Assembly (NCBI RefSeq): GCF_964194025.1 | Contig: NC_134470.1 | Location: forward strand, 53,010,001-53,074,000 | DNA length: 64,000 nt | Source: Convolutriloba macropyga | Taxonomy: Eukaryota | Direction of reading: 5' to 3' | Part shown: positions 1 through 37,100 of the stretch, in pieces | Position numbering within the stretch: position 1 is the first letter of the stretch | How the letters are laid out: every line of letters starts with the position of its first letter | Position numbers and translations under genes: made by a program | Notes under the pieces: model-generated | Database searches by the model: none | What the model was told of the DNA's origin: nothing | The model's input: the letters and a program-made list of their open reading frames with translations, nothing else

Positions 1-1537
1 CCCAGACTGTTAACAAATCATGGCCTTACAAGGTAGCTGTTACTTTTAAAATCTCGATCTGGCAACGGGTTTCCGTCAGATGGAAATAGAATCAGAGGAT
101 CAACGACTTCAGAGGATCTAGAATCAGAGGATCATCAAAAACGAATACTGATGGGGCTTTGTAATGCACCTGTTGCTTTTCAAAGATTGATGGAATGGTG
201 TTATGAAGGTTAACACACAAAAAGTTACTGGCGTATACAGATGAAATAATTGTTTATGGATGATCGTTCGAGGAATACATGAAAAACCTAGCCATCACTG
301 CATGTAGAATAGAAGAGGCAAATCTGAAAAAAATGCCATAAAAATGCAAACTTTCTCAACATCATATCCCTTTCTTGGGTCTTATTAATTCCGAGGATGG
401 AATTCAAATCAATCCAGCTATTATAGCCGCTATAAACTCATAGCCAGTCCCTTAATCGGTGAAGCAGGTGCGTGCATTTTTAGGATTAACATAATTTTAC
501 ACGAACTTTATACCAAGTTTTGTATATTCTAATGAATAAAGAAAAACTATTTCATTACACGGAGGATTGCGATAAAGCAGTTTTTGCAAAATGCATTGCT
601 GAACTTTCCAATTGTTGGCTTTCTTACGGAGACTGATATTTTGTCCTTTGTACTGATACGTCTCTGTCAGAGAATTGGAACTGTTCTTTTTCAGAACCAA
701 GGCGGAAATCTAAAGTTTTTTGCTTATGCTTGTAAAACTTTACAGAAGGGTTGGCGTAGCTGTTCTGCAACAAAGCGGGAATCGTACGCAGTTATTTTTC
801 TTTTACTTTTGAGAGTATCTCATTGGTCAGAAGTTTGATATAATAACTGATCATCTGGCTCTAAATTGGTTATTTTCTTTCAATGGACCTGATGGCTTGG
901 TAGCCAGATGGATTGAGAAATAAAATTTGTTCATTTTTTGAAATTGTAAATCGACTGGGGACACTAATATCAGATGCAGATGCTTTATCGCGCAGAAATG
1001 ACAATTCATATTATATATCAGCAGTTAGATTAGAGCCCTCAACAGAGGTTGAGGTTCATTTTGCTAAAGCACAGACAGACGATTACGCCTTGGGAAAGGT
1101 TCGTATTTGCTTAGTCTCAGAATCGGCATTGGAGGTCAGAACTCTTTGGAGAGCCAATAGATTTTATAGGTTATTGGAATCAATTTGAGTCCCTAACTAT
1201 GATAGATGACTGTATTTACCACCAGATAGTTGACACTGACAGTTCAGTACAAGTTTATCAACATTGTGTGACAAGAATTGAAGTTTCAAAAATATCAACT
1301 TTACTTCATAATGACCCAGCAGCCGGTTATTTAGGTATCGCTAAAACCCTTCAACCCTTTCATTGGCCTAGTATCAAAGGAGATGTTGAGGTTTTGGTCT
1401 CTAGTTGCGATCAATGTTAGAAACGGAAGGGTGCAAAAAAACATCGAATGCCGATGTTAGATGTTAAAATGGCACGCCTCACAGCGGTTTTAGCATATAT
1501 CTTGTGAGATCTTTGGTCTGTTGGCAATTAATATATA

Positions 1538-1590
<53 letters not shown>

Positions 1591-2340
1591 CCATAAAAAT
1601 ATCCTCAAGGTCGGTGATAAATATTCTTGATGGTTCAAAACTTTAAAAAGATGTTTGGGGAATAGGACCGACTTACTCCACGCCCGATTATCCACAGGAT
1701 AACGCTAAAGTTGAGTCAATTAATAGAAAACTAGAGGACGGTTTGCAAAATATTATGAGGAAAATCAAACTCATTGTTCTGAGCTTTTGCCCGTTTTTCT
1801 GATGGCTTACATGTCAACCGTTCATGAACCAACTGGTCAAACACATTTTGGAGTAATTTGTGGGCAGGAATTGAGAATGCCTATTAGCTTTCTATATCCA
1901 ACCCATATATCGAAGTTCTTAAAATTTCCAGTCAGGAATCCAAGAGAGGTTGGTGCGTAGTTTGCAATTTTTTGCGTATGTACGCTCTAAATGTGCTCTG
2001 GAGCACCGTAGAGGAAAACTGATACTCGGCAAAAAAATTTACGGTCCCTCTTTTAAAGAACAAGACCTCGTGTTTGTACACTCACCTGTCGCAAAAACAG
2101 TTCAATCGACAAAACTGAAAAACCGTTGGACTGGTCCTTATGTCATCAAAGGAAAAGTTAAGGATGTTAATTTCAATGTGGAAAGTTTTAACAAAACTAA
2201 AGAAGCGTTGTGCATTATGATCGTTTTAAACATTATAAAAATAGTTTTAAGGGGAAAAATTTTTCGCTTACTATGAAAACGCCCTCGTATAAACTGGTTG
2301 AAATTTCTAAGAAGACAACCTAGCAACCTAGTGTAGAAAA
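1..2340 (+). pseudogene. pol: Degenerate Ty3/Gypsy pol (RT-RNase H-integrase), truncated by the window start
   Basis: Frameshifted motif remnants in Gypsy order: DLATGFRQME (RT motif A), MGLCNAPVAFQRLM (motif B), AYTDEIIVY (decayed YxDD), RNase H YACKTL, integrase HHCC (HNDPAAGYLG..HWPSIKGDV..CDQC) and C-terminal WTGPYVI. Confidence 0.9.
1543..1589. repeat. (TA)n microsatellite inside integrase remnant
   Basis: Direct TA run. Confidence 0.95.
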
Positions 2341-2464
2341 TGTTGAAATACAGTCAGATGATAATATTTCGTTTTTGAACCTGATTTGATGTCTAATCAA
2401 GTTCAAAAACCGCAGACAAGTAGTTCTAATAGATTTTTAAATCGTAGAAAGGCAACAGAAAGTG

Positions 2465-4100
2465 CAATGTCACCAGGGTCCTATTACTTGTCTTGATGCT
2501 TGATATCGAGTATATACATGTTCCTTGTGGGGAGACTTGCAATGTCTCTGTCAGCAACGGTAACAAGGGTTGGATACGACATCAAACAATTTTTGTTAAA
2601 AAGATATTCTCATTGATGCCAGGAATTCACCTAGTTTAACCTATGGTGGTTTAGTAATTAATGCCCCGGAGTTTGACATTGATTTGAGTTTCTGTATGTA
2701 CCGTGCATCGTATAATATCTGGAAAATTGCTCATTCAGCTAGATTAGATGATGCAACTTTGATTGCAGAAGAATCAAGATTGATTCTGACTTGATATCCA
2801 ACTGAAACTTGGACTTGTCGTGTCATTCTGATGAACCAGTAGTTTACACTACCAGGATCTTTGAATTCCAAATTTAAGTTGGAAAAAGAAATATTTATTG
2901 TTGAAGGTCGACAGCTGAAAGCTGGGGAGCAAAAATTTTTTCAATTTAATGCTAGATTCAACTGACGAAGCTTGAACGTTCGCTATCGATGGGGGGATGG
3001 TGTATAACGGAAAACACCTACGGGTTCAGTAGTATTTGGCTCGGTAGCAATTACCGGAGAAATAGTGATAGGAAAGTTGATTGCTTCCTCAGACAAAACA
3101 ACAACGCCATTGTCGCTTGTAATGAAGGATCGTATGGGTCAGAATACATCATGTATGTTTCCTGGCACAGATTTAATACACGATTCAGTGGCGTATCTAC
3201 CACCTTTTATGGGTAATGTGAACTGAAATCTTATTTCTTGTTTAATGAAGATTATACAGATGTCCTCATAAGATCTAGAGAAGCGGAATGCATTAGCGGC
3301 GAAACCACCGAGTGATCAAACTCCAGAGTGTTTTACGTAGAGGTACTCAACATTACCCTAACGGTGAAAACAACAATATACACGGGCGTGTATTTGGTAT
3401 TTGAACAAACCAAACAGAACCTTCCAACAGTAGATTTTAACGTTGATGAATATCGAAACCTGGTTTATGGAACTCATGTTTAATTTGCGCTTGTAAATGT
3501 TGAATTTTCGAGACAACGGATTGTCAGATTCATGAAACAGGAGATTTGTAAAACGAGACAAATAATCCTATTCTCATTAATAGCCCTCGCTTCTTATCTA
3601 GACAATCCCAATTTCTTTGGGACAGGTTCTAAGGTGAGATTTCATTCAGAAAAAGCTGGTGCAGTGTTATATGTACAAATATTTTCTCAAGTTGCAGTAA
3701 ATGTAGCTGACTTTCTTTATTGCACTGAGGAAGTACTTGTGATTATAGATATTTTAACCAAAATAAAATTCGTGAATCTCATCACTCAAAAAGTTTTTTC
3801 TAATTCTACACTAACATCTTGTGATCTGAGGGTGTTTTGTCATTTAGACTTTGCTGACAATCTGCCTTCCCTGCACACGGCGGGATTGTTTTCGTATGAA
3901 AATTTACAAAAAATGCAAGAGCACGCGTTTTGAGATTTTCAAGAAAGAAAATCGGTGGTGGAGAGCTATACCTAGATGCTGGTAACAAATATTCACATCC
4001 TGGCTTAAGTCATTTCAATCCCAACTTCAGAGCGGAATTGGTTGTCTTACCAACATGGAGATACTTAGAAGGTTTGGAAAACTTAGCTGGGCATGAGCTC
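2465..4100 (+). pseudogene. env: Degenerate env-like ORF, class III fusion glycoprotein-like (chuvirus G / herpes gB type), copy 1
   Basis: Lies after integrase; hydrophobic RVLLLVLML near the start; ORF 3532-3933 has ICKTRQIILFSLIALA, KAGAVLYVQ..V.V....CTEEVLV, FVNLITQKVFSNSTLTSCD and SLHTAGLFSYENLQKMQEH, which I recognise as the order and spacing of chuviral-G-type motifs. Confidence 0.65.
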
Positions 4101-4102
4101 CC

Positions 4103-4564
4103 TTAATTTGGGCGTGAGCTTCCTGTAGTCTAGAACTCGACTTCTGAAAAGACTTTAAAATTCTAGTGGGGGTCTTTACTGACTATAGATAAACGCTCCA
4201 GTATCACAGAGAATCAAAATTAATCCTTTAAATACTGTAAAAAGCAAACCTTTTCAATACCGTGAAGAGCGATGACAGAAAAAAGGCTGAGCCAATGAGA
4301 GCCAAATGAGGGTTTGACAAACGTCTGGAGTTTAAAAAGGCCGACAATCTTACTATATTAAGCAAATTGACGCATCAATTCAATAACTGGCTAATTTTTT
4401 CAATGTTCCCAAAATTCTTTGATATTCAGTGGAAATTCATTTTCTAAAACTTTTCCTACAGGAAAAAACAAAAGCTGACAATTCAAAAGAAAACAAACAT
4501 CATGAAATTGCCAGGGCTTTCAAAACTTACTTCTGAACAGTTGGACCAAAACTTGCCAAAAGAC
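4103..4564 (+). repeat. ~460-bp direct repeat A (partner 5181-5659; also present in copy 2)
   Basis: ttaatttgggcgtgagct...ggaccaaaacttgccaaaagac repeated about 1.08 kb downstream. Confidence 0.9.
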
Positions 4565-4762
4565 CAAAACTTGCCAAAAGTATATTGGAGGTTATTTTTT
4601 CTCCCTTAAAGTTGTATATGTAAAGTATAATGCGTGTTCATACCTCTTGTAAGGCTATAAAAACAAATGTCAAAGCGGAACGTCTACTACTTCGTTCACA
4701 TGTGGTTAATGAAACCGAATGTTTTATTCAGAAATATAACTACCATAGTTTTGTGTTTTCAG

Positions 4763-4938
4763 AAACGCAACGAAGTATGTCCTCGACTGCCTACAGAGTG
4801 GGTGACTGACATTGACATAGGAGTGAACAACCCTCAGCCTAAGGTCGTCAACCAACACAAGCTGTACAAAGAAACTGAACTCAAGTTGTTCAAACCTGTC
4901 GCCAAATCATTCACGGGTGGAGCAGCCCCTATCAATTT
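4763..4938 (+). CDS. Candidate host-gene exon of unknown product (duplicated at 9814-9989)
   Basis: Acceptor ttttgtgttttcag, donor gtaagc, open frame KRNEVCPRLPTEW...GGAAPIN, higher GC than the flanks. Confidence 0.4.
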
Positions 4939-5180
4939 GTAAGCATTAAGTTTCGATACTGTCTTGTAATTCATTTTTTGGAAGAAAAAAATGCTACAGA
5001 CCCCCTGAACCCTTTGTAATTTATCATCGCTATTCACGGTATATGCAATCAGAACTAATTAGTTGCTCTCAGTTGAGACTCTTTGCATATAACTCAGTCA
5101 TTGTGGTCTTTGCACCTTATTGAGTCGTTTTGTGGAGTTGATTTCATTTTCGAGTAACTTATTTCATCCCGCCTGACCTT

Positions 5181-5659
5181 TTAATTTGGGCGTGAGCTCC
5201 CTGTAGTCTAGAACTCGACTTCTGAAAAGACTTTAAAATTCTAGTGGGGGTCTTTACTGACTATAGATAAACGCTCCAGTATCACAGAGAATCAAAGTTA
5301 ATCCTTTAAATACTGTAAAAAGCAAACCTTTTCAATACCGTGAAGAGCGATGACAGAAAAAAGGCTGAGCCAATGAGAGCCAAATGAGGGTTTGACAAAC
5401 GTCTGGAGTTTAAAATGGCCGACAATCTTACTATATTAAGCAAATTGACGCATCAATTCAATAACTGGCTAATTTTTTCAATGTTCCCAAAATTCTTTGA
5501 TATTCAGTGGAAATTCATTTTTTAAAACCTTTCCAGGAAAAAACTTTTGTTCACAGGAAAAAACAAAAGCTGACAATTCAAAAGAAAACAAACATCATGA
5601 AATTGCCAGTGCCTTCAAAACTTATTTCTGAACAGTTGGACCAAAACTCGCCAAAAGAC
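5181..5659 (+). repeat. ~480-bp direct repeat A, second copy
   Basis: Matches 4103-4564 with a small insertion near 5535. Confidence 0.9.
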
Positions 5660-7395
5660 TCGAAATTATAGATTTTATTGAAGCTGCAATAATAATTTAA
5701 TTCAGATGGAAGAAAATATAAACAATTATTACAGAACATTAGTTCAATTCACCACTTGGGACACCATACAAGTTAAAAGACTCATCAAGAGGTGCCCCAA
5801 AAAATCTATCAAATGCATGTGCTAAAGTGTTTGCGCAGAAGTAAAGGATCTAAATTGCTTGTCTGTTGCACAGAAAAACTTAACCCCACGCCATTCAAAC
5901 TTGCAAAAAAGATTTCCTCGGCATAAAATTCTGGCAACAGATAATTTTAGCATTTATATAGCTGAATTTTGTACTTAAGTAAAGTTATCGACAGTTTGTT
6001 CATAGCCACAAAGCTGGGGCTATTATTGAATTGCTCTTGGTTTTTCTAATTTGAAAGAATTTGAATTGTATTGAGGCGCTGTATTTCTTACAACTCACAA
6101 CTTACAAGAGGAGTATTGGAGAAGTGTCTTTTTTAATCATTTGTTTGTTTGAACTTGAAGCAAGAAATTAAACGCGTGAAAAAATTTAGAGTGGTTTGTT
6201 GCGCTGAAAAAAACTGTCAAGTGGAGTGAAAAGAAAGTGTTTTTTTTTCAATTCGTTGTTCTCGTTAGAGCGAGAATTGGAGGTGTGAAAAAAAAAATTT
6301 GTGTAATCGAGGGAAAATTTTTGTTCACGTACGGCTTTTGAAAGCAATTTTTTGCAACTTTATAAGTTACGAGGCTTGTTTGGGATATTTCACTAATTGT
6401 TGACTGATTCGGATAAGGTTTTTAAAGTTTCTGGTAATTATTATGAGTTTTATGGGAATTTTGAGGTTTCTCATCTAATTTTCTGAATTTTAGGCTAATT
6501 ATAGCAATTTTTCGCCTATTATTTTCTTTTAGAGCTTTAAGTGGGATTTGATTAGACGAATATTACTCCAAAAGCTTTTAGATGTGAAGTGATAACATAT
6601 TTGTTGGTATTAAATGTTTTTTTACTTATGAAAAATGAGAAGCAATCGAGAAATTTTCTAATAATTTTTTAAATTTTTTTACACTTTTTTCTCTTACCTT
6701 AGACATAGTTCTTAGCCTATTATGACTTGCCTTTTCTACTGCGAGCATGTCAATACAATAAATTCTTCAATGAATATTTTTGGCTTCATATGCCCTTGTA
6801 ACGTTAAAAATTTCATTAACTGTTTTTGTTTTTTTTTAATCAAGTAGTTTTTAATTGCCTTTTGTATTCTTTTTCCATTTTTTATTGCATTTAGCGAGGT
6901 CTAATGTTCCATTTCCATATTCTATTCTTTTTGCTGCCTTCCGACTGAATTGATTTTAATTTTGATTTGTTTTTGGTAAAGATAATTGAGTAATTTCAGG
7001 CAATTTATGGCCGATTTTTGTCTATTTTTGAGTTTTTCCTTCCTCAGCTGCGTTTAATATCTCATCGAGGCTTTGTAAAAAAGTTTTTGCATATGTTCTA
7101 TTTGCAACGGAACGATTTTCAACATTTTAATGTCGAGAATTGTTGCTAGTTTTTGAAAAAAAACTTTATTTTTGAAGGCTTGTCTAAAATTTTTGTCATT
7201 TTTCGAATTTTTCCAACCTCAGGGGCCGGAAAAATTCCATTTTTGTTTGCTAATCTGTTTCTGCATATTTTTTTGGGCGATGAAGTTGTTTTCAACAATT
7301 TAATTTCACGAATTTTTGCAATTTTTCGATAAAATTTGAAATTTTTTTTAATGTTTCTTAGTTTTTTGGTCCAGTTTTTAGTTTTTCGAACTTTC

Positions 7396-10300
7396 GAAAT
7401 ACAGTCAGATGATAATATTTCGTTTTTGAACCTGATTTGATGTCTAATCAAGTTCAAAAACCGCAGACAAGTAGTTCTAATAGATTTTTAAATCGTAGAA
7501 AGGCAACAGAAAGTGCAATGTCACCAGGGTCCTATTACTTGTCTTGATGCTTGATATCGAGTATATACATGTTCCTTGTGGGGAGACTTGCAATGTCTCT
7601 GTCAGCAACGGTAACAAGGGTTGGATACGACATCAAACAATTTTTGTTAAAAAGATATTCTCATTGATGCCAGGAATTCACCTAGTTTAACCTATGGTGG
7701 TTTAGTAATTAATGCCCCGGAGTTTGACATTGATTTGAGTTTTTGTATGTACCGTGCATCGTATAATATCTGGAAAATTGCTCATTCAGCTAGATTAGAT
7801 GATGCAACTTTGATTGCAGAAGAATCAAGGTTGATTCTGACTTGATATCCAACTGAAACTTGGACTTGTCGTGTCATTCTGATGAACCAGTAGTTTACAC
7901 TACCAGGATCTTTGAATTCCAAATTTAAGTTGGAAAAAGAAATATTTATTGTTGAAGGTCGACAGCTGAAAGCTGGGGAGCAAAAATTTTTTCAATTTAA
8001 TGCTAGATTCAACTGACGAAGCTTGAACGTTCGCTATCGATGGGGGGATGGTGTATAACGGAAAACACCTACGGGTTCAGTAGTATTTGGCTCGGTAGCA
8101 ATTACCGGAGAAATAGTGATAGGAAAGTTGATTGCTTCCTCAGACAAAACAACAACGCCATTGTCGCTTGTAATGAAGGATCGTATGGGTCAGAATACAT
8201 CATGTATGTTTCCTGGCACAGATTTAATACACGATTCAGTGGCGTATCTACCACCTTTTATGGGTAATGTGAACTGAAATCTTATTTCTTGTTTAATGAA
8301 GATTATACAGATGTCCTCATAAGATCTAGAGAAGCGGAATGCATTAGCGGCGAAACCACCGAGTGATCAAACTCCAGAGTGTTTTACGTAGAGGTACTCA
8401 ACATTACCCTAACGGTGAAAACAACAATATACACGGGCGTGTATTTGGTATTTGAACAAACCAAACAGAACCTTCCAACAGTAGATTTTAACGTTGATGA
8501 ACATCGAAATCTGGTTTATGGAACTCATGTTTAATTTGCGCTTGTAAATGTTGAATTTTCGAGACAACGGATTGTCAGATTCATGAAACAGGAGATTTGT
8601 AAAACGAGACAAATAATCCTATTCTCATTAATAGCCCTCGCTTCTTATCTAGACAATCCCAATTTCTTTGGGACAGGTTCTAAGGTGAGATTTCATTCAG
8701 AAAAAGCTGGTGCAGTGTTATATGTACAAATATTTTCTCAAGTTGCAGTAAATGTAGCTGACTTTCTTTATTGCACTGAGGAAGTACTTGTGATTATAGA
8801 TATTTTAACCAAAATAAAATTCGTGAATCTCATCACTCAAAAAGCTTTTTCTAATTCTACACTAACATCTTGTGATCTGAGGGTGTTTTGTCATTTAGAC
8901 TTTGCTGACAATCTGCCTTCCCTGCACACGGCGGGATTGTTTTCGTATGAAAATTTACAAAAAATGCAAGAGCACGCGTTTTGAGATTTTCAAGAAAGAA
9001 AATCGGTGGTGGAGAGCTATACCTAGATGCTGGTAACAAATATTCACATCCTGGCTTAAGTCATTTCAATCCCAACTTCAGAGCGGAATTGGTTGTCTTA
9101 CCAACATGGAGATGCTTAGAAGGTTTGGAAAACTTAGCTGGGCATGAGCTCCCTTAATTTGGGCGTGAGCTCCCTGTAGTCTAGAACTCGACTTCTGAAA
9201 AGACTTTAAAATTCTAGTGGGGGTCTTTACTGACTATAGATAAACGCTCCAGTATCACAGAGAATCAAAATTAATCCTTTAAATACTGTAAAAAGCAAAC
9301 CTTTTCAATACCGTGAAGAGCGATGACAGAAAAAAGGCTGAGCCAATGAGAGCCAAATGAGGGTTGGACAAACGTCTGGAGTTTAAAAAGGCCGACAATC
9401 TTACTATATTAAGCAAATTGACGCATCAATTCAATAACTGGCTAATTTTTTCAATGTTCCCAAAATTCTTTGATATTCAGTGGAAATTCATTTTCTAAAA
9501 CTTTTCCTACAGGAAAAAACAAAAGCTGACAATTCAAAAGAAAACAAACATCATGAAATTGCCAGGGCTTTCAAAACTTACTTCTGAACAGTTGGACCAA
9601 AACTTGCCAAAAGACCAAAACTTGCCAAAAGTATATTGAAGGTTATTTTTTCACCCTTAAAGTTGTATATGTAAAGTATAATGCGTGTTCATACCTCTTG
9701 TAAGGCTATAAAAACAAATGTCAAAGCGGAACGTCTACTACTTCGTTCACATGTGGTTAATGAAACCGAATGTTTTATTCAGAAATATAACTACCATAGT
9801 TTTGTGTTTTCAGAAACGCAACGAAGTATGTCCTCGACTGCCTACAGAGTGGGTGACTGACATTGACATAGGAGTGAACAACCCTCAGCCTAAGGTCGTC
9901 AACCAACACAAGCTGTACAAAGAAACTGAACTCAAGTTGTTCAAACCTGTCGCCAAATCATTCACGGGTGGAGCAGCCCCTATCAATTTGTAAGCATTAA
10001 GTTTCGATACTGTCTTGTAATTCATTTTTTGGAAGAAAAAAATGCTACAGACCCCCTGAACCCTTTGTAATTTATCATCGCTATTCACGGTATATGCAAT
10101 CAGAACTAATTAGTTGCTCTCAGTTGAGACTCTTTGCATATAACTCAGTCATTGTGGTCTTTGCACCTTATTGAGTCGTTTTGTGGAGTTGATTTCATTT
10201 TCGAGTAACTTATTTCATCCCGCCTGACCTTTTAATTTGGGCGTGAGCTCCCTGTAGTCTAGAACTCGACTTCTGAAAAGACTTTAAAATTCTAGTGGGG

Positions 10301-12448
10301 GTCTTTACTGACTATAGATAAACGCTCCAGTATCACAGAGAATCAAAGTTAATCCTTTAAATACTGTAAAAAGCAAACCTTTTCAATACCGTGAAGAGCG
10401 ATGACAGAAAAAAGGCTGAGCCAATGAGAGCCAAATGAGGGTTTGACAAACGTCTGGAGTTTAAAATGGCCGACAATCTTACTATATTAAGCAAATTGAC
10501 GCATCAATTCAATAACTGGCTAATTTTTTCAATGTTCCCAAAATTCTTTGATATTCAGTGGAAATTCATTTTTTAAAACCTTTCCAGGAAAAAACTTTTG
10601 TTCACAGGAAAAAACAAAAGCTGACAATTCAAAAGAAAACAAACATCATGAAATTGCCAGTGCCTTCAAAACTTATTTCTGAACAGTTGGACCAAAACTC
10701 GCCAAAAGACTCGAAATTATAGATTTTATTGAAGCTGCAATAATAATTTAATTCAGATGGAAGAAAATATAAACAATTATTACAGAACATTAGTTCAATT
10801 CACCACTTGGGACACCATACAAGTTAAAAGACTCATCAAGAGGTGCCCCAAAAAATCTATCAAATGCATGTGCTAAAGTGTTTGCGCAGAAGTAAAGGAT
10901 CTAAATTGCTTGTCTGTTGCACAGAAAAACTTAACCCCACGCCATTCAAACTTGCAAAAAAGATTTCCTCGGCATAAAATTCTGGCAACAGATAATTTTA
11001 GCATTTATATAGCTGAATTTTGTACTTTAGTAAAGTTATCGACAGTTTGTTCATAGCCACAAAGCTGGGGCTATTATTGAATTGCTCTTGGTTTTTCTAA
11101 TTTGAAAGAATTTGAATTGTATTGAGGCGCTGTATTTCTTACAACTCACAACTTACAAGAGGAGTATTGGAGAAGTGTCTTTTTTAATCATTTGTTTGTT
11201 TGAACTTGAAGCAAGAAATTAAACGCGTGAAAAAATTTAGAGTGGTTTGTTGCGCTGAAAAAAACTGTCAAGTGGAGTGAAAAGAAAGTGTTTTTTTTTT
11301 TCAATTCGTTGTTCTCGTTAGAGCGAGAATTGGAGGTGTGAAAAAAAAAATTTGTGTAATCGAGGGAAAATTTTTGTTCACGTACGGCTTTTGAAAGCAA
11401 TTTTTTGCAACTTTATAAGTTACGAGGCTTGTTTGGGATATTTCACTAATTGTTGACTGATTCGGATAAGGTTTTTAAAGTTTCTGGTAATTATTATGAG
11501 TTTTATGGGAATTTTGAGGTTTCTCATCTAATTTTCTGAATTTTAGGCTAATTATAGCAATTTTTCGCCTATTATTTTCTTTTAGAGCTTTAAGTGGGAT
11601 TTGATTAGACGAATATTACTCCAAAAGCTTTTAGATGTGAAGTGATAACATATTTGTTGGTATTAAATGTTTTTTTACTTATGAAAAATGAGAAGCAATC
11701 GAGAAATTTTCTAATAATTTTTTAAATTTTTTTACACTTTTTTCTCCTACCTTAGACATAGTTCTTAGCCTATTATGACTTGCCTTTTCTACTGCGAGCA
11801 TGTCAATACAATAAATTCTTCAATGAATATTTTTGGCTTCATATGCCCTTGTAACGTTAAAAATTTCATTAACTGTTTTTGTTTTTTGTTTAATCAAGTA
11901 GTTTTTAATTGCCTTTTGTATTCTTTTTCCATTTTTTATTGCATTTAGCGAGGTCTAATGTTCCATTTCCATATTCTATTCTTTTTGCTGCCTTCCGACT
12001 GAATTGATTTTAATTTTGATTTGTTTTTGGTAAAGATAATTGAGTAATTTCAGGCAATTTATGGCCGATTTTTGTCTATTTTTGAGTTTTTCCTTCCTCA
12101 GCTGCGTTTAATATCTCATCGAGGCTTTGTAAAAAAGTTTTTGCATATGTTCTATTTGCAACGGAACGATTTTCAACATTTTAATGTCGAGAATTGTTGC
12201 TAGTTTTTGAAAAAAAACTTTATTTTTGAAGGCTTGTCTAAAATTTTTGTCATTTTTCGAATTTTTCCAACCTCAGGGGCCGGAAAAATTCCATTTTTGT
12301 TTGCTAATCTGTTTCTGCATATTTTTTTGGGCGATGAAGTTGTTTTCAACAATTTAATTTCACGAATTTTTGCAATTTTTCGATAAAATTTGAAATTTTT
12401 TTTAATGTTTCTTAGTTTTTTGGTCCAGTTTTTAGTTTTTCGAACTTT
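7396..12448 (+). repeat. 5,051-bp tandem duplication, copy 2
   Basis: Near-identical to 2345-7395; ends at ...tttttcgaacttt. Confidence 0.97.
7516..9151 (+). pseudogene. env: Degenerate env-like ORF, copy 2
   Basis: Duplicate of 2465-4100. Confidence 0.65.
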
Positions 12449-18077: not shown

Positions 18078-18406
18078 TATAAACAAACTTCTAATTCCTT
18101 TTTAAACTGTTATTAAGCCCATAATTTGATAATTTCCTTTTGATCTAATTTTCATTATTCTGTTTTCATTCATCTCATTTGCATCTCTGTAAATCAGTTG
18201 CAATTTAAAGTTTGTCAACTGCTTTTCAATTAGCAAGCTTGATTAGCAAGCAATTTTCATGCCTTTCGCGCCGCGAATGCTCAGTTCATAACTCGGAATT
18301 CAGCCAGTGAATACTAAGTTGGCAATCGCATAGCAATTGCCTTAGTTAGTTGGTAAAGATACAATTGCTACTCATTTGACTAGTCACAGAGTAATTGAGT
18401 ACAACA
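18078..18406 (+). repeat. 5' LTR of Gypsy element (left end approximate)
   Basis: Homologous to 25005-25302. Confidence 0.85.
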
Positions 18407-18421
18407 TGGCGCAGTCGGCAG
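18407..18421 (+). promoter_or_regulatory. Primer binding site, tRNA-Ser
   Basis: TGGCGCAGTCGGCAG directly after the LTR CA; complementary to a tRNA-Ser-type 3' end (CUGCCGACUGCGCCA). Confidence 0.8.
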
Positions 18422-20242
18422 TCGACTCTCGCACGAATCTTCTCCACATCGACGCGTTCTGGCAGAAAACTACTATCACACCACCACTTTCGTGGTTTAA
18501 ATGGACGCAACAATGGAAATTGGCATTGCTGGCTAAAGAGAGGATTCAATTGGAAACTTTGTTTAATGGACCACTTCCAACGGTTACATACCCACCTGAA
18601 CCACTATATAAAGAACTCGTGGACAATCTTACTGAACGGGAAAGAAAAATCCGCAACCAACAATTAAAGGTAACTTGGCAAAATAGATGCAGTAAGATAC
18701 ATGAAATTGGTTTTTTGTGCTGGGATAAACCTTGGTAAAATTGCGAACAAAAAGCTGCATCTCTCCTCTACCAATGTATTGGAAAAGTAGGTCGTCGCAT
18801 CTTTAAAAGCAATCACCCCCACTTCGAAATCGAAAAAGTGCCGTTAAAGGAACTTTGGCGAGTGATGAAGGATTCATTCATAAAAGCTAGAAACATACCC
18901 TATGATCGTTTTGTTTTCTTCTCTTTTAGACGACAAAAAGGGGAATCAGTGGAAAATTTCTATGGACGTCTCATTGAACGAGCACAAAATTGTAGTTTGG
19001 GGGATGAAAAAACAACTCTTATTAGAGATTCTTTCATACTCAACATGCAAGATCACGACACTCAAAGAGAACTCTTGAAAGAGGCAGGATCGCCTGCCAA
19101 AGCTCTTGAATTTGCAATGCAAATGGAAATGGAGGCGCAAAATCAACAGAAAAACCAAAATATGAATACTAACGCTCAATCTGTCAACATTTTCAACAAT
19201 TTTCAAGGACGCAATTGGAATGCGAGTTACCAGTAGCCACGAAAGACTTCACTCGCTATCCAACTTTCCCTCAAAACTAACAATATACAAGCATTTGCGC
19301 TATTTGTGGTCAGCGCTGGAGTCATAACCACCGCCAAATTTTCCCCACAAATCGTAAGAAATGCAATAATTGTGAAATTATAAGACATTTGGCAAAAAAG
19401 AGTGTGGCGAACCTAAAAAATCAGAAACTCGAACGTCAAAACTTCCACGAGCAAATATCGATCAGATCGAAACAAATACCACTAAAAGCGACTGTCAATT
19501 ATATAACAAGTTATCAACAACTCCACAATCAAGTCTATGATTCTAGCTACGATAGTGACTCTGATGACTATGTGGCAGCTATCTCCAGTGATACTGCAAA
19601 CCAATTACAACTCCTCAATGCAAAAATTCTTTATTGAAACATCTTGGCAAACTCGATGATTGACTCAAGCAATGTATGCAGTCTCATCACAAAAACTTTC
19701 GCAAACAGAATCCTCAAAACTACACCACTTGCAAGATGGATTACTACGAAACAGGACAAAGATCTCGAAACATTCATTTTCGAATGAACCAATCAAAGTT
19801 TCAGGAAAACTTTCAACAACAGTCACATACAATGATTGGACCTGTGAAGAGGCTTGCTTAACAGTTGTGTAGGACGGACACAAACTAATTATTGGGAAAG
19901 ATCTTTTCAACAGTCATGGCCTGGCAGTGGTACAACAACAAACAAAAAGGGCAAATGTTTAAACAATAATGATAATTATACATGTAAAATTAAACAAACA
20001 ATCGCGTGGCAATTTACACGCCTAGTCTCAAGAATTGGCCTCTCAAAGACTCTCAGCAAAGCCTCAAAAAGGTCGTCGCGTTCCGAATAATCTACAACCT
20101 GGAGTTACAATCGAATTAGATCGTCTACAAAAAAGAAGGACATATTGAAACATTCTCTAGCTGCTCTAACGAACACTTTATATCACCGATAGGAATCACA
20201 GTAAAGAAAGATCAATCTATAAAATTAGCATTAGGTTATAAA

Positions 20243-20948
20243 CTATGTCCAACTATGTTATCCAACTATGCTGGGCAAACAAGCCGGCCTGCTACCACAA
20301 GGATAACAGAACATCAAAAGAAGGATTCACTGGTGGGTCAACATCTGGTTGAATGTCGTGGCGCCACGAATGACATTGAATGGAAATTTGTGGACGCCTG
20401 TCGGATAGTAGAAAAACTAATGATTATCGAAGCTTTATATATATATCAGCAAGCTGAAGCCGGCACTAAACACACGCGATGAATATAGGGGGAGGGAACT
20501 CACGCTAAAATATTAGTTCAAATCATAATTTTGACTAGATGAGAATACATAGGACAAAAAACATTTTGTGCATGACAAAACGAAATTTGCAAAACCTCCA
20601 TAAGAGGGATACTTATGGTTAGGGCAAATTCGGAATAACCCTAAAAATACAAGAACATGGCCGCAATCGAAAAATCCGGAATAGGAATGTTTTTAAATAA
20701 ATTGATAACAGATGTAAATACGAGTTGTTAATAGGCTAAATATTGTATATAGGGAAAAATTTTCGATTGTTTTTGAAGAATAGTTCCTTGAATTGTTTTA
20801 ATTGTCATCTCAGACAAATGTAAATACAGATTCATTTTATCTTTTAACAATTTGTAAAACAGTTTTAACCTGACGATGAACGTAAAGTTCGAAAACGTTT
20901 GTTTTAAATATTGGAAGTAAATTTAATTTGACAAATTGGTTTCCTTTA
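20243..20948 (+). mobile_element. 5'-truncated Penelope-like retroelement (GIY-YIG C-terminus plus 3' region) inserted into the Gypsy RT
   Basis: YAGQTSRPATTRITEH...SLVGQHL...KLMIIEALYI..KPALNTRDEY; flanked by a 14-bp duplication cattaggttataaa (20229-20242, 20949-20962); removing it rejoins RT IKLALGYKVFKKLIHK. Confidence 0.85.
20863..20908 (+). ncRNA. Candidate minimal hammerhead ribozyme of the Penelope-like element
   Basis: CTGACGA-T-GAAC(gtaaa)GTTC-GAAA followed by palindromic acgttt; stem I is short and imperfect. Confidence 0.6.
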
Positions 20949-23443
20949 CATTAGGTTATAAAGTTTTTAAAAAATTAATTCACAAAAAAAATATCAAATG
21001 CCCAACATCGAAACGTTAATAGATTCAATTTCACACCACCTTACAAACACACAAAACGGTCAACCAGCCTATTTTTTAACAATAGATCTCAAATATGCCT
21101 ATAGTCAAAAACAATTGCATAAAGACACCGCAAAACACTGTAACTTCAATATCATTTGTGGAGAATCCACCGGCACCTATAGATTTAAGACTGGATTTTA
21201 CGATCTTACTGACATGCCAGCTGAATTTCAAAAAGCAATGGACTATATACTTGTAGGCCTTCAAAACACCTATTGATTCCTTGGCGATACTGTTATTGTT
21301 AGCACAGGATCAGAATCCGATCACCTTTGTTATGTTACTAAATGCCTTAAAAAACTAGACGATGACAACTTGAGATTTAATTGTCAAAAATGCCATTTCG
21401 TAAAAACGGTAATTGAACGGCTTGGGTACAAATTTACCCAAACTGGTATATCACCACTTGAAAATAAAACGGCTGCTATATTAGCAATACCACCACCATC
21501 AACATTTAAACGCCCAATATCTTTCCTTGGGTCAGTACACTATATAAGTAAATTCATATCAAATCTAGCACAGCTTTGCCTCCCCCTTAGATCATTTCCA
21601 AAAAAATCCGCTAAATTTCTGGACTGAAGAACATACGAAACATTTCAACATTATAAACGGAAAAATTGCTGCAAGTACCGAAAATAGCCATTATAATCCC
21701 AAACTGGATGTTCGTGTAAAATGTGGTGCTTCCCGTTCTGGATTGGGTGCTGCCCTCGAACAAAACACTACTGATGGGTGGAGACCTATAGAATTTGAAT
21801 CACGATATCTTAATCCTACAGAAGAACGAAACAGTGTCAATGAACTTGAATTATTGGGAGTCGTTTGGTCAATCGACTACTTTAAATACTACCTCTACGG
21901 AAAGGACTTCACTCTAATAACAGAGCATCGCGCTTTACTATCAAACCTAAAGGAACATAGATCCAACAAGTCCTACAATAGTCCTTTTTCTAGATGGACC
22001 GACCGTCTATTTCCCTATGATTTCACGATTGAACATATGCCTGGAGCAAAAATGGTCTTGTAGACTACATCTCTAGAAATCTTTTTGCCAAAGCTAAGAA
22101 AGTTTCGTCCTACGATGCACATTTTGTGTTGGTGACGATATCCAATTTTCGGCATTCGTTTAAAAACCTAATCAAACAAAAATTACAAACAGTACAAAAA
22201 TTAGATGGTATATTCACCCTTACAAAAATCAAGTAGGTTAATCGCACCGCAAACACCTAATTTAATTCATGGCAATTCGCAAGTTCGGATTACAGCAATT
22301 ACACCACAATCATTATCTCTTAATACTTCATTACCAATCCCATCGCAATTGGCACAGAATAAATCTATTAGTCCCCACTTAAAAACGCCAATCGCGTCAC
22401 AAATATCTTTCAAAATTCAAAACCACAATTTGCACTAAATAAACCGCCATTGCATAAATCACATTTCATTAACAAGTTCGCTGCATCTCCGCTGCAAAAG
22501 TCAGAAACTAAAGAATAGGAAAAATCTGAACAATTAAACCCAATAAAGCCCATATTTGATACCAACTCAAATATTCACCACAAATTTCTCAAATTAGGCG
22601 CGACAGTACAAAATCCCAACTATAAATACAACCAATTCAAAAAAATTTCGCTTTTTGCCCGAAATCGATTCAGTATTCATCATTCAAAAAATCACTCCAT
22701 AAACGCTATCTCCAGTATGCCGAGAATTAAATCAACCAAACCAACACCCACAAAAGCCCGAGTCACCTTCTCGGATAATTCACCCTCCAACACGACACCA
22801 GCAACAAAACCTCGTCCAATATAGAAACAACGCATTCTACGAGTGCCATAAACACCACGGAGGATCTCAAAATGACTGATACGATCAACAGGATCTTCAG
22901 CAAAAAATTGTTGGCGATCTTGACCGGAAAAAATGCCACCTTGAAAGAGGTACGAGATTGCGTTATTCGCAATGACGAGGAACGATTGAAGGATATCAGC
23001 CCCTATATCCATTCATACAGGCGGGACATGAATGTGAAACATGGATGCATGTACATCGATGAGCGTATAGCAATACCCAAAACCATCAAAGACGCTGTGC
23101 TGGAGGACATTCACTCCACACACCCCGGGAGTTTTGCTATGCTATCACTAGCGCAAATCATTTGGAGGCCATATATCCATCGAGATATAGAAGCTATGCC
23201 AGTGAGTGCAAAGCTTGCACGGAAATTGGTAAGATTTTAAAACCAGTGATTCTGCATAGCAAATGGTCACCTTTACATAAATGTATTGAACCGAACGACG
23301 CAATCCAAATAGACTGTGGTGGACCTTCTGTTAATGAAAAGGGTGTAGAACAATTTTTCCTTACAAGCGTTGATCGATCTCAAAATACCCCACAGTAGAA
23401 AAAGTAAATAACGCATCTAGCACGAAGGTAATTAAATTTCTTA

Positions 23444-23445
<2 letters not shown>

Positions 23446-23527
<82 letters not shown>
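23446..23527. repeat. (TA)n microsatellite inside Gypsy integrase
   Basis: Direct TA run between IKFLN and NHRVPRTIR. Confidence 0.95.
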
Positions 23528-23532
<5 letters not shown>

Positions 23533-25004
23533 ATCACCGAGTACCCAGAACAATCAGATTAGATCAAACTAAATGTTTGACAGGCAAAAAGTTTGAAACA
23601 TTTTGTGGTTCTGAAAATAATATTGAACCAGTATATGCACCTGCAAATGACCATAGAGCAATAGGTTTAGTCGAACGTCTCATTCAAACTTTAGAACGTT
23701 AATTATCATGCATGAAAGCACATCTAAATAAAATCTTGAATCTTGAACATTCAATACATGCAATTATAGAACGCTTAAGGCTATTTAGACAAAAAACAAC
23801 AAAAATTTCACAATTTGAAGCACACTTTGGTAGACGTTGTAATACACCAATTTCAAATACCACCACTAAATCGAGTAATAAAAATTTAAGTTATAATAAA
23901 ATAATTAAATATCGTTTAGACAAAGATACCGTCCCAGGAAGATTGTATCTCACGGATGAGCTGTGGGCAGGTACAGGCATGTGCTCCCATGTAGAAATCG
24001 AGAAAGTTATATGCGCTGCAAAGGCCCGAGCTCACGATGAGCAACAAAATCGAAAAGATGAAGAGTCAAGGCTCGTTTGGTCTGAAGGTATCTCCAGACC
24101 TATCCCGCGAAGCGAAGGAGCATACAGGTCAAGATTGGACAAAATACATGCAGCGCACAGACAAAAAAAAAGACCTTGATGGTTTATACGAAGTCCTGGC
24201 CCCAATATATTGACAGACGACCAAAAAAAATTCAAGAAAAGACGTTGGAGCAGAAAATAATTAACCATAAAAAGGATCTAGTGAGAAAAGACTTAGGGAG
24301 CAAGAAGATTAAGCGCAACCACAAGCAACCTAACAACGTCAGTATTGTATCTTCTGGACGATCTTGCATTTCAACCTCCAGTAATGTCGCTCACGCTTCG
24401 AAGATGAGAATCCCCAAATGAAACCCCAAGCACGTTGAGGCATTCCAGAACCGGCCAGATTTGACACAAATTCCGCATTTCAGTCCACCAGTACCAATTG
24501 TGGCTCCACCTACACAACCCGCGCTAGCAGGACCATCTGCGCAGCAAATAACCCCCATTTTGCGGAAAGAAAAGCGAACCATTCAAGTCAGCGACACGTC
24601 TGACTCCGATAAATCCTTATTAAGAAGGAGTAAACTGCGACAAGTAAACAAGCGACTTAAGACGCAGAAAAAAGCCCCCCCAGTCTTAATCCATTGTGCA
24701 AAACATTCAGTATGCGGAAGGATATTCAACAAAACTTCCAATTTCGGATACAACCTTCTTTTGTGTTTCGTCTTCGAGAAATCCAAATGAAAGATGGACA
24801 GTAGATCCAAACCCAAATTTTCCACGCGAAATGATTGTATTAGAGGCGGAAGAATGTTTAGATAATTCTGAATAAACTCTCAAAAAACTCTTTAAAGTCG
24901 GTATTTTACTTTATTGTTTAGTATTTTTCTATTATATAACCGGTGAATAATTACTAATTTTCTGATTTTATTTATTAAATTTTTTTTTCTCCAACAGGGG
25001 GAAA

Positions 25005-34189: not shown

Positions 34190-37100
34190 ATTCTTTGCTG
34201 GAAAGAGTTCTCGAAAATTCAGAATAATGTATTACATGCGCCTAATTCATTGAAAGAATTATCTAACAGTTAATACCGTTGTTCACAAGATAGAAGCTCA
34301 GGCCATGAAGTTATCTAAAGCTAGATCTAAAGCTGAATTAAGTTTAAACGACTTGTACAAGTAAAATAAAATAAAACACCCTGAAGAGCTTGAAATTTGG
34401 CTCAAAGAAGCAAGCGAAACCCTTTACAATTATGTAGCAAAAGCATGACAATATTTTGAGCTCAGTGATGAGACAATTGGTAAAGCAACGCTCCGCCGAA
34501 AAACATCAAGCTTTTGATCAAAAACTCTCTCAATCTCATCCAGCCTGATGAGAAGAGAACAGGAAATAGCAAAACTGCAACGAGAAGAGATTGAGAGAGA
34601 GTGTGTGTGAGAATGAAATCAAACTTGCCCAACAAAAGCATCAATTAGAACTAGACAAAATTAGCGAAGAGAACAGGAAACAATTATTTGACGCAGAGGT
34701 CGAAGAGATTCGGGCAATGAAATCTTCCGATGAGAAGCTTGACTGTGAGCTTGGTGATCCAACAATTATGAAAAAGTATAAATATTCGAAGCGTGTAACA
34801 GAATGGGTTGACAGCTCATTAGCAAACAATAATCTGTGTGCAACTCTTCGTTCAAACCGCGCTGAAAACGAAATGCAAGAAAATGGGTTCCTTCCAGCTC
34901 TGAACTTGTTACCAATTCAGGAAATGGATAACCACATAATGGGTCTTCGATGCTACCGAATTCAAACGCCGAACCAGATCCGTTAGTGCAGCAATGCTAT
35001 TCCTCACCGCCAAACGAAGGTAACGCGCTTTAAAACTTCGTCCCTACTCCAAGAGGAGTATCATAATTTGTTTCATTTGGAAAGTAAGACAGACAGTCCA
35101 GTCCGCAGAAATGAAATAACAATGTCACTAACCAGGCAGCTGATACGGGAGTATCAGCACCTGAACCCTCACAGTTGCCAGAACCCTCGATCTGGGCTCC
35201 AGCCCCCCGCGCAGATCCAAATTGGAATCAACCAGATTATTTTTTAGCAAACATAAACAACCCCATGTTGACAATTTTACCATCTATTACTCCTGATCAT
35301 CAGAATGTACAATACACTGTCCAATATATGCAACGCAAATTTTATCCCATGGCTAGCCACTTCCTGCCAAAAATGACTCTGTGGCATGTACCTCAACCGG
35401 CAACCGTAACTTCCTTACATCCTCAACAAGTTGAACAGCGAGTACTGCAAACAAATATGAATAAAGCAGTTGTATCCTATTCAAGTGGAGGTACAACCTA
35501 CTACAACCGAAACCCGTTATTGTCTGCAACCTTTATAGGTCAACAAAACACTTCGTTGTCATTAACGGTGCAGGAAGGTCTGTACTGGAACCAAATGCTG
35601 CCTTACGCAGCCGTGCCAATCAATTCCACTGGTCCCTTCCATTCGTATCATTCATCGGCATCAGTCGCTTTCACATGCGATAACTCTTTGAATGTTAAAG
35701 ATCTAGCCGACGCAATAGCCCCCGGTCAACTCAATCAATTACCAAAATGGAGGCTTGTGCAATATAATGCGCAACCCCTTCTTTGGCATGAGTGGATACG
35801 GCAGTTCGAAATTGCCATTGACTCTCAGAATCTCTCCGATGGAGCAAAATTAACATATTTGAAACTCTTCTATCCGGAAAAGTTAAAAAACGCATCGAGC
35901 AGTTTGCGTATAGTGGTGCATTGCATAACAATGCCATGAAAGTTCTTGAACAGAAATTCGGCCAACCCCATGCCGTAGTTGGTGCTCAGCTTGATAAGTT
36001 TAACAATTACCCACCCTTAAAGATGCAAAATTCGGAAAATGTAATTGCTTTCGCATCAGTAATATCAAGTTCAGTCGTCGTTTTCCAGTCACTGTCATAT
36101 TACGCCAATTTGCGTAGCTTACCTTTACTGAATCAAGTGGTACAAAAACTCTCGCCCAATCTTAAGAACTTCTGGTGTTCGCATATAGTGAAAAAGCTGT
36201 GGTTCAGATCTTCCTTGTTAGAGTTCAACGATTGGCTACAGGAAAAAGCGGACACACATGACCTCATGAAAGCAGTTGAATTTAAGATTAGGACAGACGA
36301 AACATCAGTTGTAACTAAAACAAAAACAACTTCAAAGGCATTGCGTCAAATTCAAAAGTTGCCGACGTTAAACAGACGAACCCGTTAACAAGAAACGGAA
36401 ACAAACTTGGATGCCCACACTGCAAGGTATATCATTCAATTTGGAAATGCCTGAAAATCAGAAATGAAAACCCAACTCAGAGAGCAAAAATTGTTGCCGA
36501 ACATAGACTATGTTTTTCCTGTCTCAATGGTTCTCGTCAGTTTAGAAATTGTCCCAACCCCCGAAAATGCAAACAACCTAGTTGCACTAGTACACATAAT
36601 ATTCTGTTACAAGGTGCCGAACGCATCTTCACTAAAAACAACGCAAAGGAACCAAGTGAAACAAAAAGCTTCGCGGATCCACAGCAGTCAACAACTATAG
36701 TTACACTCAATTCCGAAAACATCTGTCCCCTCAATCAAGACGGAAACTCATCATCTTTCCCTGCTGTGTCCGACATCAAACCTTTTACAGGTTAAGGAAG
36801 TCCACCTCAAAGGCCCCACAGTTGAAGAAACAAAAAACTTGCTGTATGTGATCCAGCCTGCCCTGCAGTCATTCGTGGATTGCGGAAGCGCTGCGGCAAG
36901 ACTCAATCTGAAAAGTTTACCTCTTAAACTAACTGTTTGTGGAACAAATGCAAAACAAACAAGTCATTGACACACTTATTACAGACGTGACAGTTAAACC
37001 GTTAGGTGATAACTCCTGTGACAGTTTCGACGTAAGTCCATACGTAAGAGACATGCTAAATGTGGGTTGTGATATTATCAATGTACCTCAATTACAGGAA

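What the first reader, a model, noticed from the sequence alone, without database searches (positions are those of the whole stretch)
2465..4100. Ty3/Gypsy remnant with a class III (chuvirus G / herpes gB-like) envelope gene
Seen: decayed coding sequence right after integrase, with a signal-peptide-like start and motifs C....I...L.ALA, AGAVLYV...V.V....C.EE..V, F....T....N.T...CD and SL.TAGLFS.E.L.KM.EH. Established: classical insect errantivirus env derives from baculovirus F, while gB/chuvirus-G-like envs occur in some BEL/Pao (Tas, Anakin) elements. Inference: this is a fossil of an enveloped Gypsy element with a class III fusogen. The similarity is from my recall of the motifs, not a search.
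Basis: partly seen in the sequence, partly recalled or inferred. Interest (0 to 1): 0.7.

Follow-up and report, generated by a model that had tools for sequence, protein, structure and literature searches.

The report
Fossil enveloped Gypsy element, acoel worm
This is a broken, duplicated relic of a virus-like jumping gene, likely from an acoel worm, whose envelope protein is predicted to fold like the fusion proteins of chuviruses and herpesviruses; such elements are already known from other animals, and dozens of young sister copies here likely still use this protein to move between cells.

Summary
Window 2496-4089 is a decayed env gene directly behind a Ty3/Gypsy integrase. It has 7 stops, several frameshifts, and ends before the membrane anchor. 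It is duplicated at 7547-9140.

Complete relatives in the same genome read LTR-PBS(tRNA-Leu)-gag-pol-env-ORF4-PPT-LTR, with 4-bp target duplications in 12 of 16. A sister subfamily has 35 listed copies with an open 684-aa env and LTR pairs 99.4-100% identical. That env hits Pfam Monjiviricetes_fusion (E 5e-20). Its model matches chu-like virus glycoproteins (E 4e-30) and herpes gB.

Gypsy elements with gB-type env were described across animals by Chary and Hayashi (PMC13524379). New here are the likely acoel host (COX1 91% identical to Symsagittifera), a phylum that survey did not list, and a constrained fourth ORF after env. This scan already noted gB-env Gypsy elements with extra genes elsewhere in this genome. 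Fusion and infectivity are inferred, not shown.

The parts
23..2496 (+). Decayed Ty3/Gypsy pol: second half of RT, RNase H, integrase (zinc finger, core, C-terminal SH3-like part). gag and protease lie just upstream of the window (G000:C3 about 53008474-53009930).
   Evidence: Pfam RVT_1, RT_RNaseH, Integrase_H2C2, rve_3 on X-read frames; tblastn with a related pol and gag; about 79-80% nt identity to complete elements
1530..1590 (.). (TA)n microsatellite sitting where part of the integrase core is missing
   Evidence: sequence; alignment gap 1518-1634
2496..4089 (+). Decayed env gene for a class III (chuvirus G / gB-type) fusion glycoprotein. ATG overlaps the pol stop. Seven premature stops; frameshifts near 2600-2640, 3203 and 3907; an in-frame internal loss near 3826; no transmembrane anchor.
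   Evidence: 83% nt identity (1355 of 1633 aligned bases) to a related copy
3484..3933 (+).
4103..4564 (+). Unrelated repeat (second copy 5181-5659) that begins where env homology stops; ORF4, PPT and 3' LTR are absent
2345..7394 (+). First unit of a 5.05-kb tandem duplication that includes the pol tail and env
   Evidence: 99.7% identity to 7396-12448; short shared sequence at the junction; contigs of two runs break at the unit ends
7547..9140 (+). Second copy of the decayed env; 6 single-base differences from the first over 2345-4100

Best explanation
The stretch is a dead, truncated and locally duplicated copy of the env gene of a Ty3/Gypsy LTR retroelement, and in unbroken relatives that gene encodes a predicted class III (chuvirus-G/gB-type) membrane fusion protein that likely lets particles pass from one cell into another. 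Shown: gene order gag-pol-env-ORF4 between LTRs, 4-bp target duplications, reverse transcription primed by tRNA-Leu, recent multiplication of a sister subfamily, and env as conserved as pol between subfamilies. Predicted: signal peptide, ectodomain with ten shared cysteines, two hairpin tips where gB carries its fusion loops, long central helix, one C-terminal membrane anchor. Inferred from other class III fusogens and from Drosophila gypsy (not tested): trimer formation, budding of enveloped particles from somatic or stem cells, and fusion into germline cells. The window copy branched within or beside subfamily A, lost its LTRs, ORF4 and anchor, decayed, and was later copied passively in a 5-kb tandem duplication.
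For: Linkage: paired LTRs around gag-pol-env in 5 of 6 subfamily A and 11 of 11 subfamily B elements examined (one B match partial); 4-bp TSD in 12 of 16. Gypsy: pol Pfam order RVP, RVT_1, RT_RNaseH, Integrase_H2C2, rve; no Peptidase_A17. Env family: PF24664 E 3e-20 to 3e-22, above cut-off, for 6 of 6 A/B-clade proteins. Fold: model pLDDT 83; all 42 PDB rows listed are herpesvirus gB, best E 8e-12; best viral matches are chu-like, qin-related and xinmovirus glycoproteins, E 4e-30 to 8e-25; the top 4 VIA rows are gB. Constraint: A versus B env 61% aa, pol 57%, gag 55%; env pN 0.27 against saturated pS 0.82. Youth: 35 of the 150 listed matches have a 684/687-aa stop-free frame; 16 of 17 B loci are 99.6-100% identical to one reference. 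Priming: 15 places carry a PBS complementary to mature tRNA-Leu including the non-encoded CCA, and two run on 31 and 47 nt into the tRNA. Decay: mismatches by codon position 76/68/118, 7 stops; branch 0.19 inside the A group.
Against: No experiment shows fusion, trimers, particles or infection. Global fold scores are low: TM 0.18-0.27 by query to gB, at most 0.45 to viral models, rmsd above 20 A; VIA Z 6.3-7.3, under the tool's caution level of 8; pTM 0.48. The sequence search of PDB found no relative. None of the 6 subfamily A elements examined has gag, pol and env all uninterrupted, and env dN/dS among A copies is 0.45-0.88 in 3 pairs, so the window's own subfamily looks mostly dead. The fusion-loop assignment rests on topology only. 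No furin motif in B env, though PMC13524379 says it is not always kept in this type. gB needs partner proteins in herpesviruses, and the entry route of gB-type errantiviruses is stated as unknown.
Confidence: 0.86

Rival explanations
1. A non-retroviral endogenous viral element: a chuvirus-like G gene that landed by chance beside an unrelated Gypsy pol.
For: Best structural matches are glycoproteins of negative-strand RNA viruses. Such G-only insertions are reported in arthropods (PMC10084718, listing only).
Against: The same gene follows the same pol inside LTRs in 16 of 17 elements examined. The pol stop and env start overlap or lie 12 nt apart. env and pol diverge in step between subfamilies.
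Confidence: 0.02
2. The env belongs to a BEL/Pao (Anakin- or Tas-like) element, not to a Gypsy.
For: A BEL/Pao element lies about 0.6 kb upstream of the gag remnant (L061, Peptidase_A17). Chuvirus-G envs are known in BEL/Pao.
Against: The adjoining pol is Gypsy in the window and in complete copies, and lies between the BEL/Pao element and env.
Confidence: 0.01
3. Identity as above, but the protein in living copies does not make free infectious particles; it fuses neighbouring cells or internal membranes, and the family spreads mostly inside the germline or stem cells.
For: No infection data exist here or, by the authors' words, for most such elements. Multi-copy spread alone needs only gag and pol.
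Against: env is kept open in 35 listed young copies and is as conserved as pol over saturated synonymous distance, so it serves transposition somehow. The fold is that of viral entry proteins.
Confidence: 0.25
4. The window copy was co-opted by the host as a truncated, anchor-less env (restriction factor or small-RNA source), which is why it was duplicated.
For: A 149-codon frame stays open in both tandem copies. The region is dense in transposon debris, as small-RNA clusters are (general knowledge).
Against: 7 stops and several frameshifts upstream; first and second codon positions are hit about equally (76 and 68); the open frame has no early Met. The duplication unit carries 3.3 kb of unrelated DNA.
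Confidence: 0.04

Closest known systems
HSV/gB-type 'ancient errantiviruses' (env-carrying Ty3/gypsy; Chary and Hayashi, eLife 2026, PMC13524379)
   Same: Gypsy pol, gag-pol-env order, LTRs, tRNA PBS, signal peptide plus one anchor, gB-like fold, many near-identical copies
   Different: Host likely an acoel; Xenacoelomorpha is not among the groups listed in their methods, and six acoel-related terms give no hit in text or 7 supplements. A fourth ORF follows env; 'accessory' and 'coiled-coil' do not occur in their main text. Their cysteine class (C1-C3) and POL clade could not be assigned because figure supplements are unreadable here.
Anakin, mosquito BEL/Pao with chuvirus glycoprotein (Dezordi et al. 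2020, PMC7642597; listing, and as cited)
   Same: Chuvirus-G-type env on an LTR retroelement
   Different: Anakin is BEL/Pao; this pol is Ty3/Gypsy
Glycoproteins of Chuviridae, Xinmoviridae and qin-related viruses (Pfam PF24664 Monjiviricetes_fusion)
   Same: Profile hit above cut-off; best structural matches
   Different: Only 14-16% identity; carried by a retroelement, not a negative-strand RNA virus; the A/B envs form their own long-branched clade
Herpesvirus glycoprotein B
   Same: All listed PDB fold matches; domain IV of pseudorabies gB aligns at 3.9 A over 154 residues, Z 5.2
   Different: 8-12% identity, shorter, no gH/gL partners in the element; a more distant match than the chu-like G proteins
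Drosophila gypsy/ZAM errantiviruses
   Same: Env-bearing Gypsy element; the model for soma-to-germline infection
   Different: Their env is F-type (class I), unrelated to this one
Cer1 CERV (C. elegans, PMC10309623) and extra ORFs of bdelloid LTR elements (PMC5408684)
   Same: Gypsy-like elements with an extra non-env ORF near the 3' end; CERV exports genomic RNA
   Different: No homology to ORF4 was tested or shown; an analogy only

Membership tests
Ty3/Gypsy (Metaviridae) | pol order protease-RT-RNase H-integrase with Gypsy-type RNase H and H2C2 integrase, no Pao peptidase | tested here: met
Ty3/Gypsy (Metaviridae) | LTRs, PBS, PPT, short target duplication | tested here: met
   In relatives: paired LTRs in 16 of 17, tRNA-Leu PBS, purine tract, 4-bp TSD in 12 of 16. 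The window copy itself has lost them. LTR ends are TG..GA or TG..TA, not TG..CA.
Ty3/Gypsy (Metaviridae) | RT placed among reference Gypsy clades (GyDB profiles or tree) | not testable with these tools
   No reference set of named clades is held
HSV/gB-type errantivirus | env ORF linked to Gypsy pol in gag-pol-env order inside LTRs | tested here: met
HSV/gB-type errantivirus | ectodomain between a signal peptide and a transmembrane segment | tested here: met
   Hydropathy peaks at the N-terminus and at about 576-612 in unbroken relatives and helices in the model; no dedicated predictor was run. The window copy lacks the anchor.
HSV/gB-type errantivirus | lineage-type cysteine-bridge configuration (C1-C3) | not testable with these tools
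   Ten ectodomain cysteines are shared by A and B; the reference figure supplements cannot be read
Class III viral fusogen | gB/G-type fold | tested here: met
   Foldseek PDB and viral hits; VIA Z 6.3-7.3 is only middling; predicted model, low global TM
Class III viral fusogen | two hydrophobic fusion loops at the tip of domain I | tested here: inconclusive
   Hairpin tips at about 86-92 and 162-175 with aromatic and aliphatic residues in the model; not superposed on gB
Class III viral fusogen | homotrimer and membrane fusion activity | not tested
   No multimer job and no assay
BEL/Pao with chuvirus env (Anakin-like) | Pao-type pol (Peptidase_A17, DUF1759) | tested here: not met
   Absent from the linked pol; present only in separate neighbours
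F-type (insect) errantivirus | baculovirus-F-like env | tested here: not met
   Only PF24664 is hit and the fold matches are class III

The most novel reading that the evidence does not exclude
Acoel worms carry living, 'complex' enveloped Gypsy viruses: at least two deeply split gB-type env lineages, each on its own pol lineage, with a dedicated accessory gene after env (disordered N-terminus, small beta domain, coiled coil, and in A and B a basic, serine-rich tail) that would act as a Rev-like or matrix-like factor. Particles would infect germline or neoblast-like stem cells through the class III fusogen. This would add Xenacoelomorpha to the test of a pre-Cambrian origin and give a system in which gB-type entry without gH/gL can be studied.
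Probability: 0.3. Interest if true: 0.65.

Novelty: new member of a known kind. Interest (0 to 1): 0.36.

Why it matters
The window copy itself is inert. Its value is as a pointer to a young, high-copy family in a phylum missing from the published survey of env-bearing Gypsy elements. How gB-type errantiviruses enter cells is stated as open (PMC13524379, discussion), and a family with dozens of near-identical open env genes is good material for that question. The conserved ORF after env suggests these elements are more complex than gag-pol-env.

Tried and rejected
Pfam on whole X-read frames 2401-4200 and on 2615-3217 and 3205-3912 gave no PF24664 hit; only the short open frame did. phmmer against PDB sequences found nothing meaningful. 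The ESM Atlas gave no answer for env or ORF4.

ORF4 function is unresolved. Pfam gives only coiled-coil noise. The database holds 3 homologues, none named. A versus B blastp is not significant (E 0.28). The model of its middle part (pLDDT 60-70 in the beta domain) gave no Foldseek match at E <= 0.001, only PWWP, Tudor and ribosomal rows at E 1-3, and the VIA list was filled by the coil. An SH3-like barrel is therefore a guess.

No 5' LTR, leader, ORF4 or 3' LTR of subfamily A was found in the window or in 30 kb upstream. No RNA holder was listed.

Horizontal transfer was considered because runs labelled as two other organisms hold near-identical B sequence. It was rejected as unsupported: depth is low and patchy, and one of those runs also holds non-env flank of this window, which fits co-sampled host DNA.

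The tree of 31 B copies needs 6 changes of PBS type but is largely unresolved, so a single origin is not excluded. Assembly artefact for the tandem duplication was judged unlikely, not excluded (contig depth is no copy number). No absolute age is given, since no substitution rate is on hand.

Literature searches listed no paper on env-bearing retroelements of acoels; the library lacks most subscription journals, and Repbase was not searchable.

Full report
Observation. Some match exactly, three only with spacing off by one or two. Upstream, X-read frames hit RVT_1, RT_RNaseH, Integrase_H2C2 and rve_3 in that order. The short frame hits Pfam PF24664 Monjiviricetes_fusion at E 0.004, below cut-off; longer X-read frames do not. 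A profile of 35 distant glycoproteins scores the frame 34.9 bits, while the 170 of 200 shuffles reported reach at most 2.3. Those proteins were found with a sister env, so this control is not fully independent.

Relatives in the genome. The window lies on contig C3 of a 1.18-Gb genome. Searching with the 149-aa frame gave 209 matches from 150 scored of 570 candidates, 150 of them listed. One group (subfamily A) is 62-69% identical to the frame. A second (B) is about 60% identical, and 35 listed rows have a stop-free frame of 684 or 687 codons. I examined flanks of 6 A and 11 B elements. Paired LTRs were found in 5 of 6 A (92.8-99.3% identical) and 11 of 11 B (99.4-100%; one match partial). The layout is LTR, PBS, long leader, gag (339-363 aa, CCHC knuckle), pol (1265-1290 aa), env (about 680 aa), ORF4 (330-410 aa), purine tract, LTR; most are 9.5-9.8 kb. 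Target duplications of 4 bp are present in 12 of the 16 with paired LTRs. Pol has the Gypsy domain order and no Pao peptidase. Six of 11 B elements have an uninterrupted 1290-aa pol; none of the 6 A elements has gag, pol and env all uninterrupted.

The window copy. It aligns collinearly with subfamily A from gag (just upstream of the window) to position 4089 at about 79-80% nt identity. Against an A env, 517 of 678 codons align without gaps at 73% aa identity, with 7 stops, frameshifts near 2600-2640, 3203 and 3907, and an in-frame loss near 3826. Mismatches by codon position are 76/68/118: mostly neutral decay on top of earlier selected divergence (inference). It falls in the A group on a branch of 0.19. 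Homology stops at env codon 569, before the anchor at about 576-606, where an unrelated repeat begins. No LTR or ORF4 of A was found in the window or 30 kb upstream. Bases 2345-7394 recur at 7396-12448 with 99.7% identity. Contigs of two runs break at the unit ends and show about three times the depth of the flank, which fits a real recent duplication; depth is not a copy number.

What env is. All 6 A/B-clade proteins tested hit PF24664 above cut-off (E 3e-20 to 3e-22). An AlphaFold2 model of a natural unbroken B env, from an 89-row alignment, has pLDDT 83 and pTM 0.48: N-terminal helix, long beta hairpins, a 48-residue central helix and a C-terminal membrane helix. All 42 PDB rows listed by Foldseek are herpesvirus gB (best E 8e-12). 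In the viral library the first nine rows are chu-like, qin-related, xinmovirus and other negative-strand virus glycoproteins (E 4e-30 to 8e-25), and gB first appears at rank 20. VIA ranks four gB chains first (Z 6.3-7.3, rmsd 21-32 A, 390-402 aligned) and aligns gB domain IV at 3.9 A over 154 residues. Global scores are low and Z is under the tool's caution level, probably because the monomer's domains are loosely placed. A and B share ten ectodomain cysteines; B has no furin motif. Two hairpin tips (about 86-92 and 162-175) are my candidates for fusion loops, from topology alone.

Selection and activity. Between A and B, env keeps 61% aa identity, pol 57% and gag 55%; env pN is 0.27 against saturated pS 0.82. 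Among A copies env dN/dS is 0.45-0.88 (3 pairs), as expected for decaying copies. Sixteen of 17 B loci are 99.6-100% identical to one reference. Priming by tRNA-Leu is shown directly. The host genes end without CCA. Fifteen places join the B LTR end to an 18-nt complement of mature tRNA-Leu, against 35 with a variant site 4 of 18 off. Two of the 15 continue 31 and 47 nt into the tRNA, and one joins the 18 nt straight to the pre-LTR tract. These look like products of reverse transcriptase copying its primer (established mechanism, recalled). Subfamily A matches the tRNA over 13 nt, at 11 places.

ORF4. It is open in most young copies, with dN/dS 0.31-0.45 in 4 A pairs on small counts. A and B share layout and C-terminal tail but only 25% global identity, not significant by blastp. 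A 411-aa database relative is 34% identical. Two other PF24664-bearing Gypsy families here (898-aa and 769-aa env) also have a coiled-coil ORF after env; two more showed none of 230 aa or longer. Their env (at most about 23% local identity to A/B) and pol (26-31%) form a separate lineage. ORF4 folds as a low-confidence four-strand domain plus coil with no significant match. A Rev-like or matrix-like role is a hypothesis.

Host. The assembly's COX1 is 91% identical to Symsagittifera roscoffensis and 75% to another acoel, against at most 68% for named non-acoels. The host is likely an acoel relative of that species.

Comparison with print. Chary and Hayashi (PMC13524379; I read the abstract, Results parts 1-4 of 5, Discussion part 1 of 2, Methods part 1 of 3, term searches of the text and 7 supplements, and part 1 of 34 of the element table) describe 1512 env-bearing Gypsy elements, with gB-type env widespread and resembling chuvirus glycoproteins. 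Their genome list does not name Xenacoelomorpha and acoel terms give no hit. Their figure supplements could not be read, which bears on clade and cysteine class. The S. roscoffensis genome paper (PMC9911081, passages) reports half the genome as LTR elements and has no occurrence of gypsy, env or envelope. Also seen: PMC12440569 and PMC10309623 (passages), PMC5408684 (abstract), PMC7642597 and PMC10084718 (listing). Six searches listed nothing on acoel env elements. This scan has two earlier unchecked notes on env-bearing elements with extra genes in this genome.

Verdict. Observation confirmed and interpretation supported. It is a new member of a known kind, the window copy is dead, and the added value is the host phylum, the young sister family and ORF4. 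Interest 0.36.

Noticed in passing
G000 subfamily B 5' LTR junctions (e.g. L125, L126, L128, L131): Two primer-site types coexist (35 variant, 15 tRNA-Leu-perfect places); two copies carry 31 and 47 nt of copied tRNA-Leu, and one joins the 18-nt site directly to the pre-LTR tract.
   Followed up: partly
L062-L102, LTR ends: LTRs end TG..GA (A) or TG..TA (B, also the 898-aa env family) instead of TG..CA.
   Followed up: partly
L031-L060, L113-L124: At least four more Gypsy families with PF24664 env (898, 769, 828, 754 aa), many with open frames, forming a lineage separate from A/B; a further env type at L121/L122 is about 31% identical to A/B.
   Followed up: partly
   Followed up: no
window 56859-57581 and 57942-63410: A GDSL/SGNH-like ORF (E 1e-4, just below cut-off) directly upstream of an uninterrupted 1822-aa BEL/Pao gag-pol ORF.
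   Followed up: partly
window 2345-12448: 5.05-kb tandem duplication at 99.7% with a short shared sequence at the junction; depth suggests more than two copies may exist.
   Followed up: partly
window 18346-24790: Another decayed Gypsy-like gag-pol remnant, 27-33% identical to the A pol, with no env seen.
   Followed up: no
window 34570-40078, 41000-45300 and L061:1339-7900: Several decayed BEL/Pao-like elements; DUF1759 or Peptidase_A17 hit in the pieces tested at 35822 and in L061, the 41-45 kb one is judged from ORF text only.
   Followed up: no
window 50458-56925: GC-rich tandem arrays with proline-rich repetitive ORFs in several frames, repeated about every 2.5 kb.
   Followed up: no
G000:C1 about 80.69-80.73 Mb and C11 about 45.16-45.22 Mb: Long tandem arrays matching the tRNA-Leu 3' end, periods about 620 and 345 bp; 184 matches genome-wide; ARAGORN confirmed tRNA-Leu genes in the C1 loci tested.
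   Followed up: no
L020:465-480: In subfamily B a pyrimidine tract plus AG stands directly before the env ATG, a possible splice or trans-splice acceptor; in A the pol stop and env start overlap instead.
   Followed up: no
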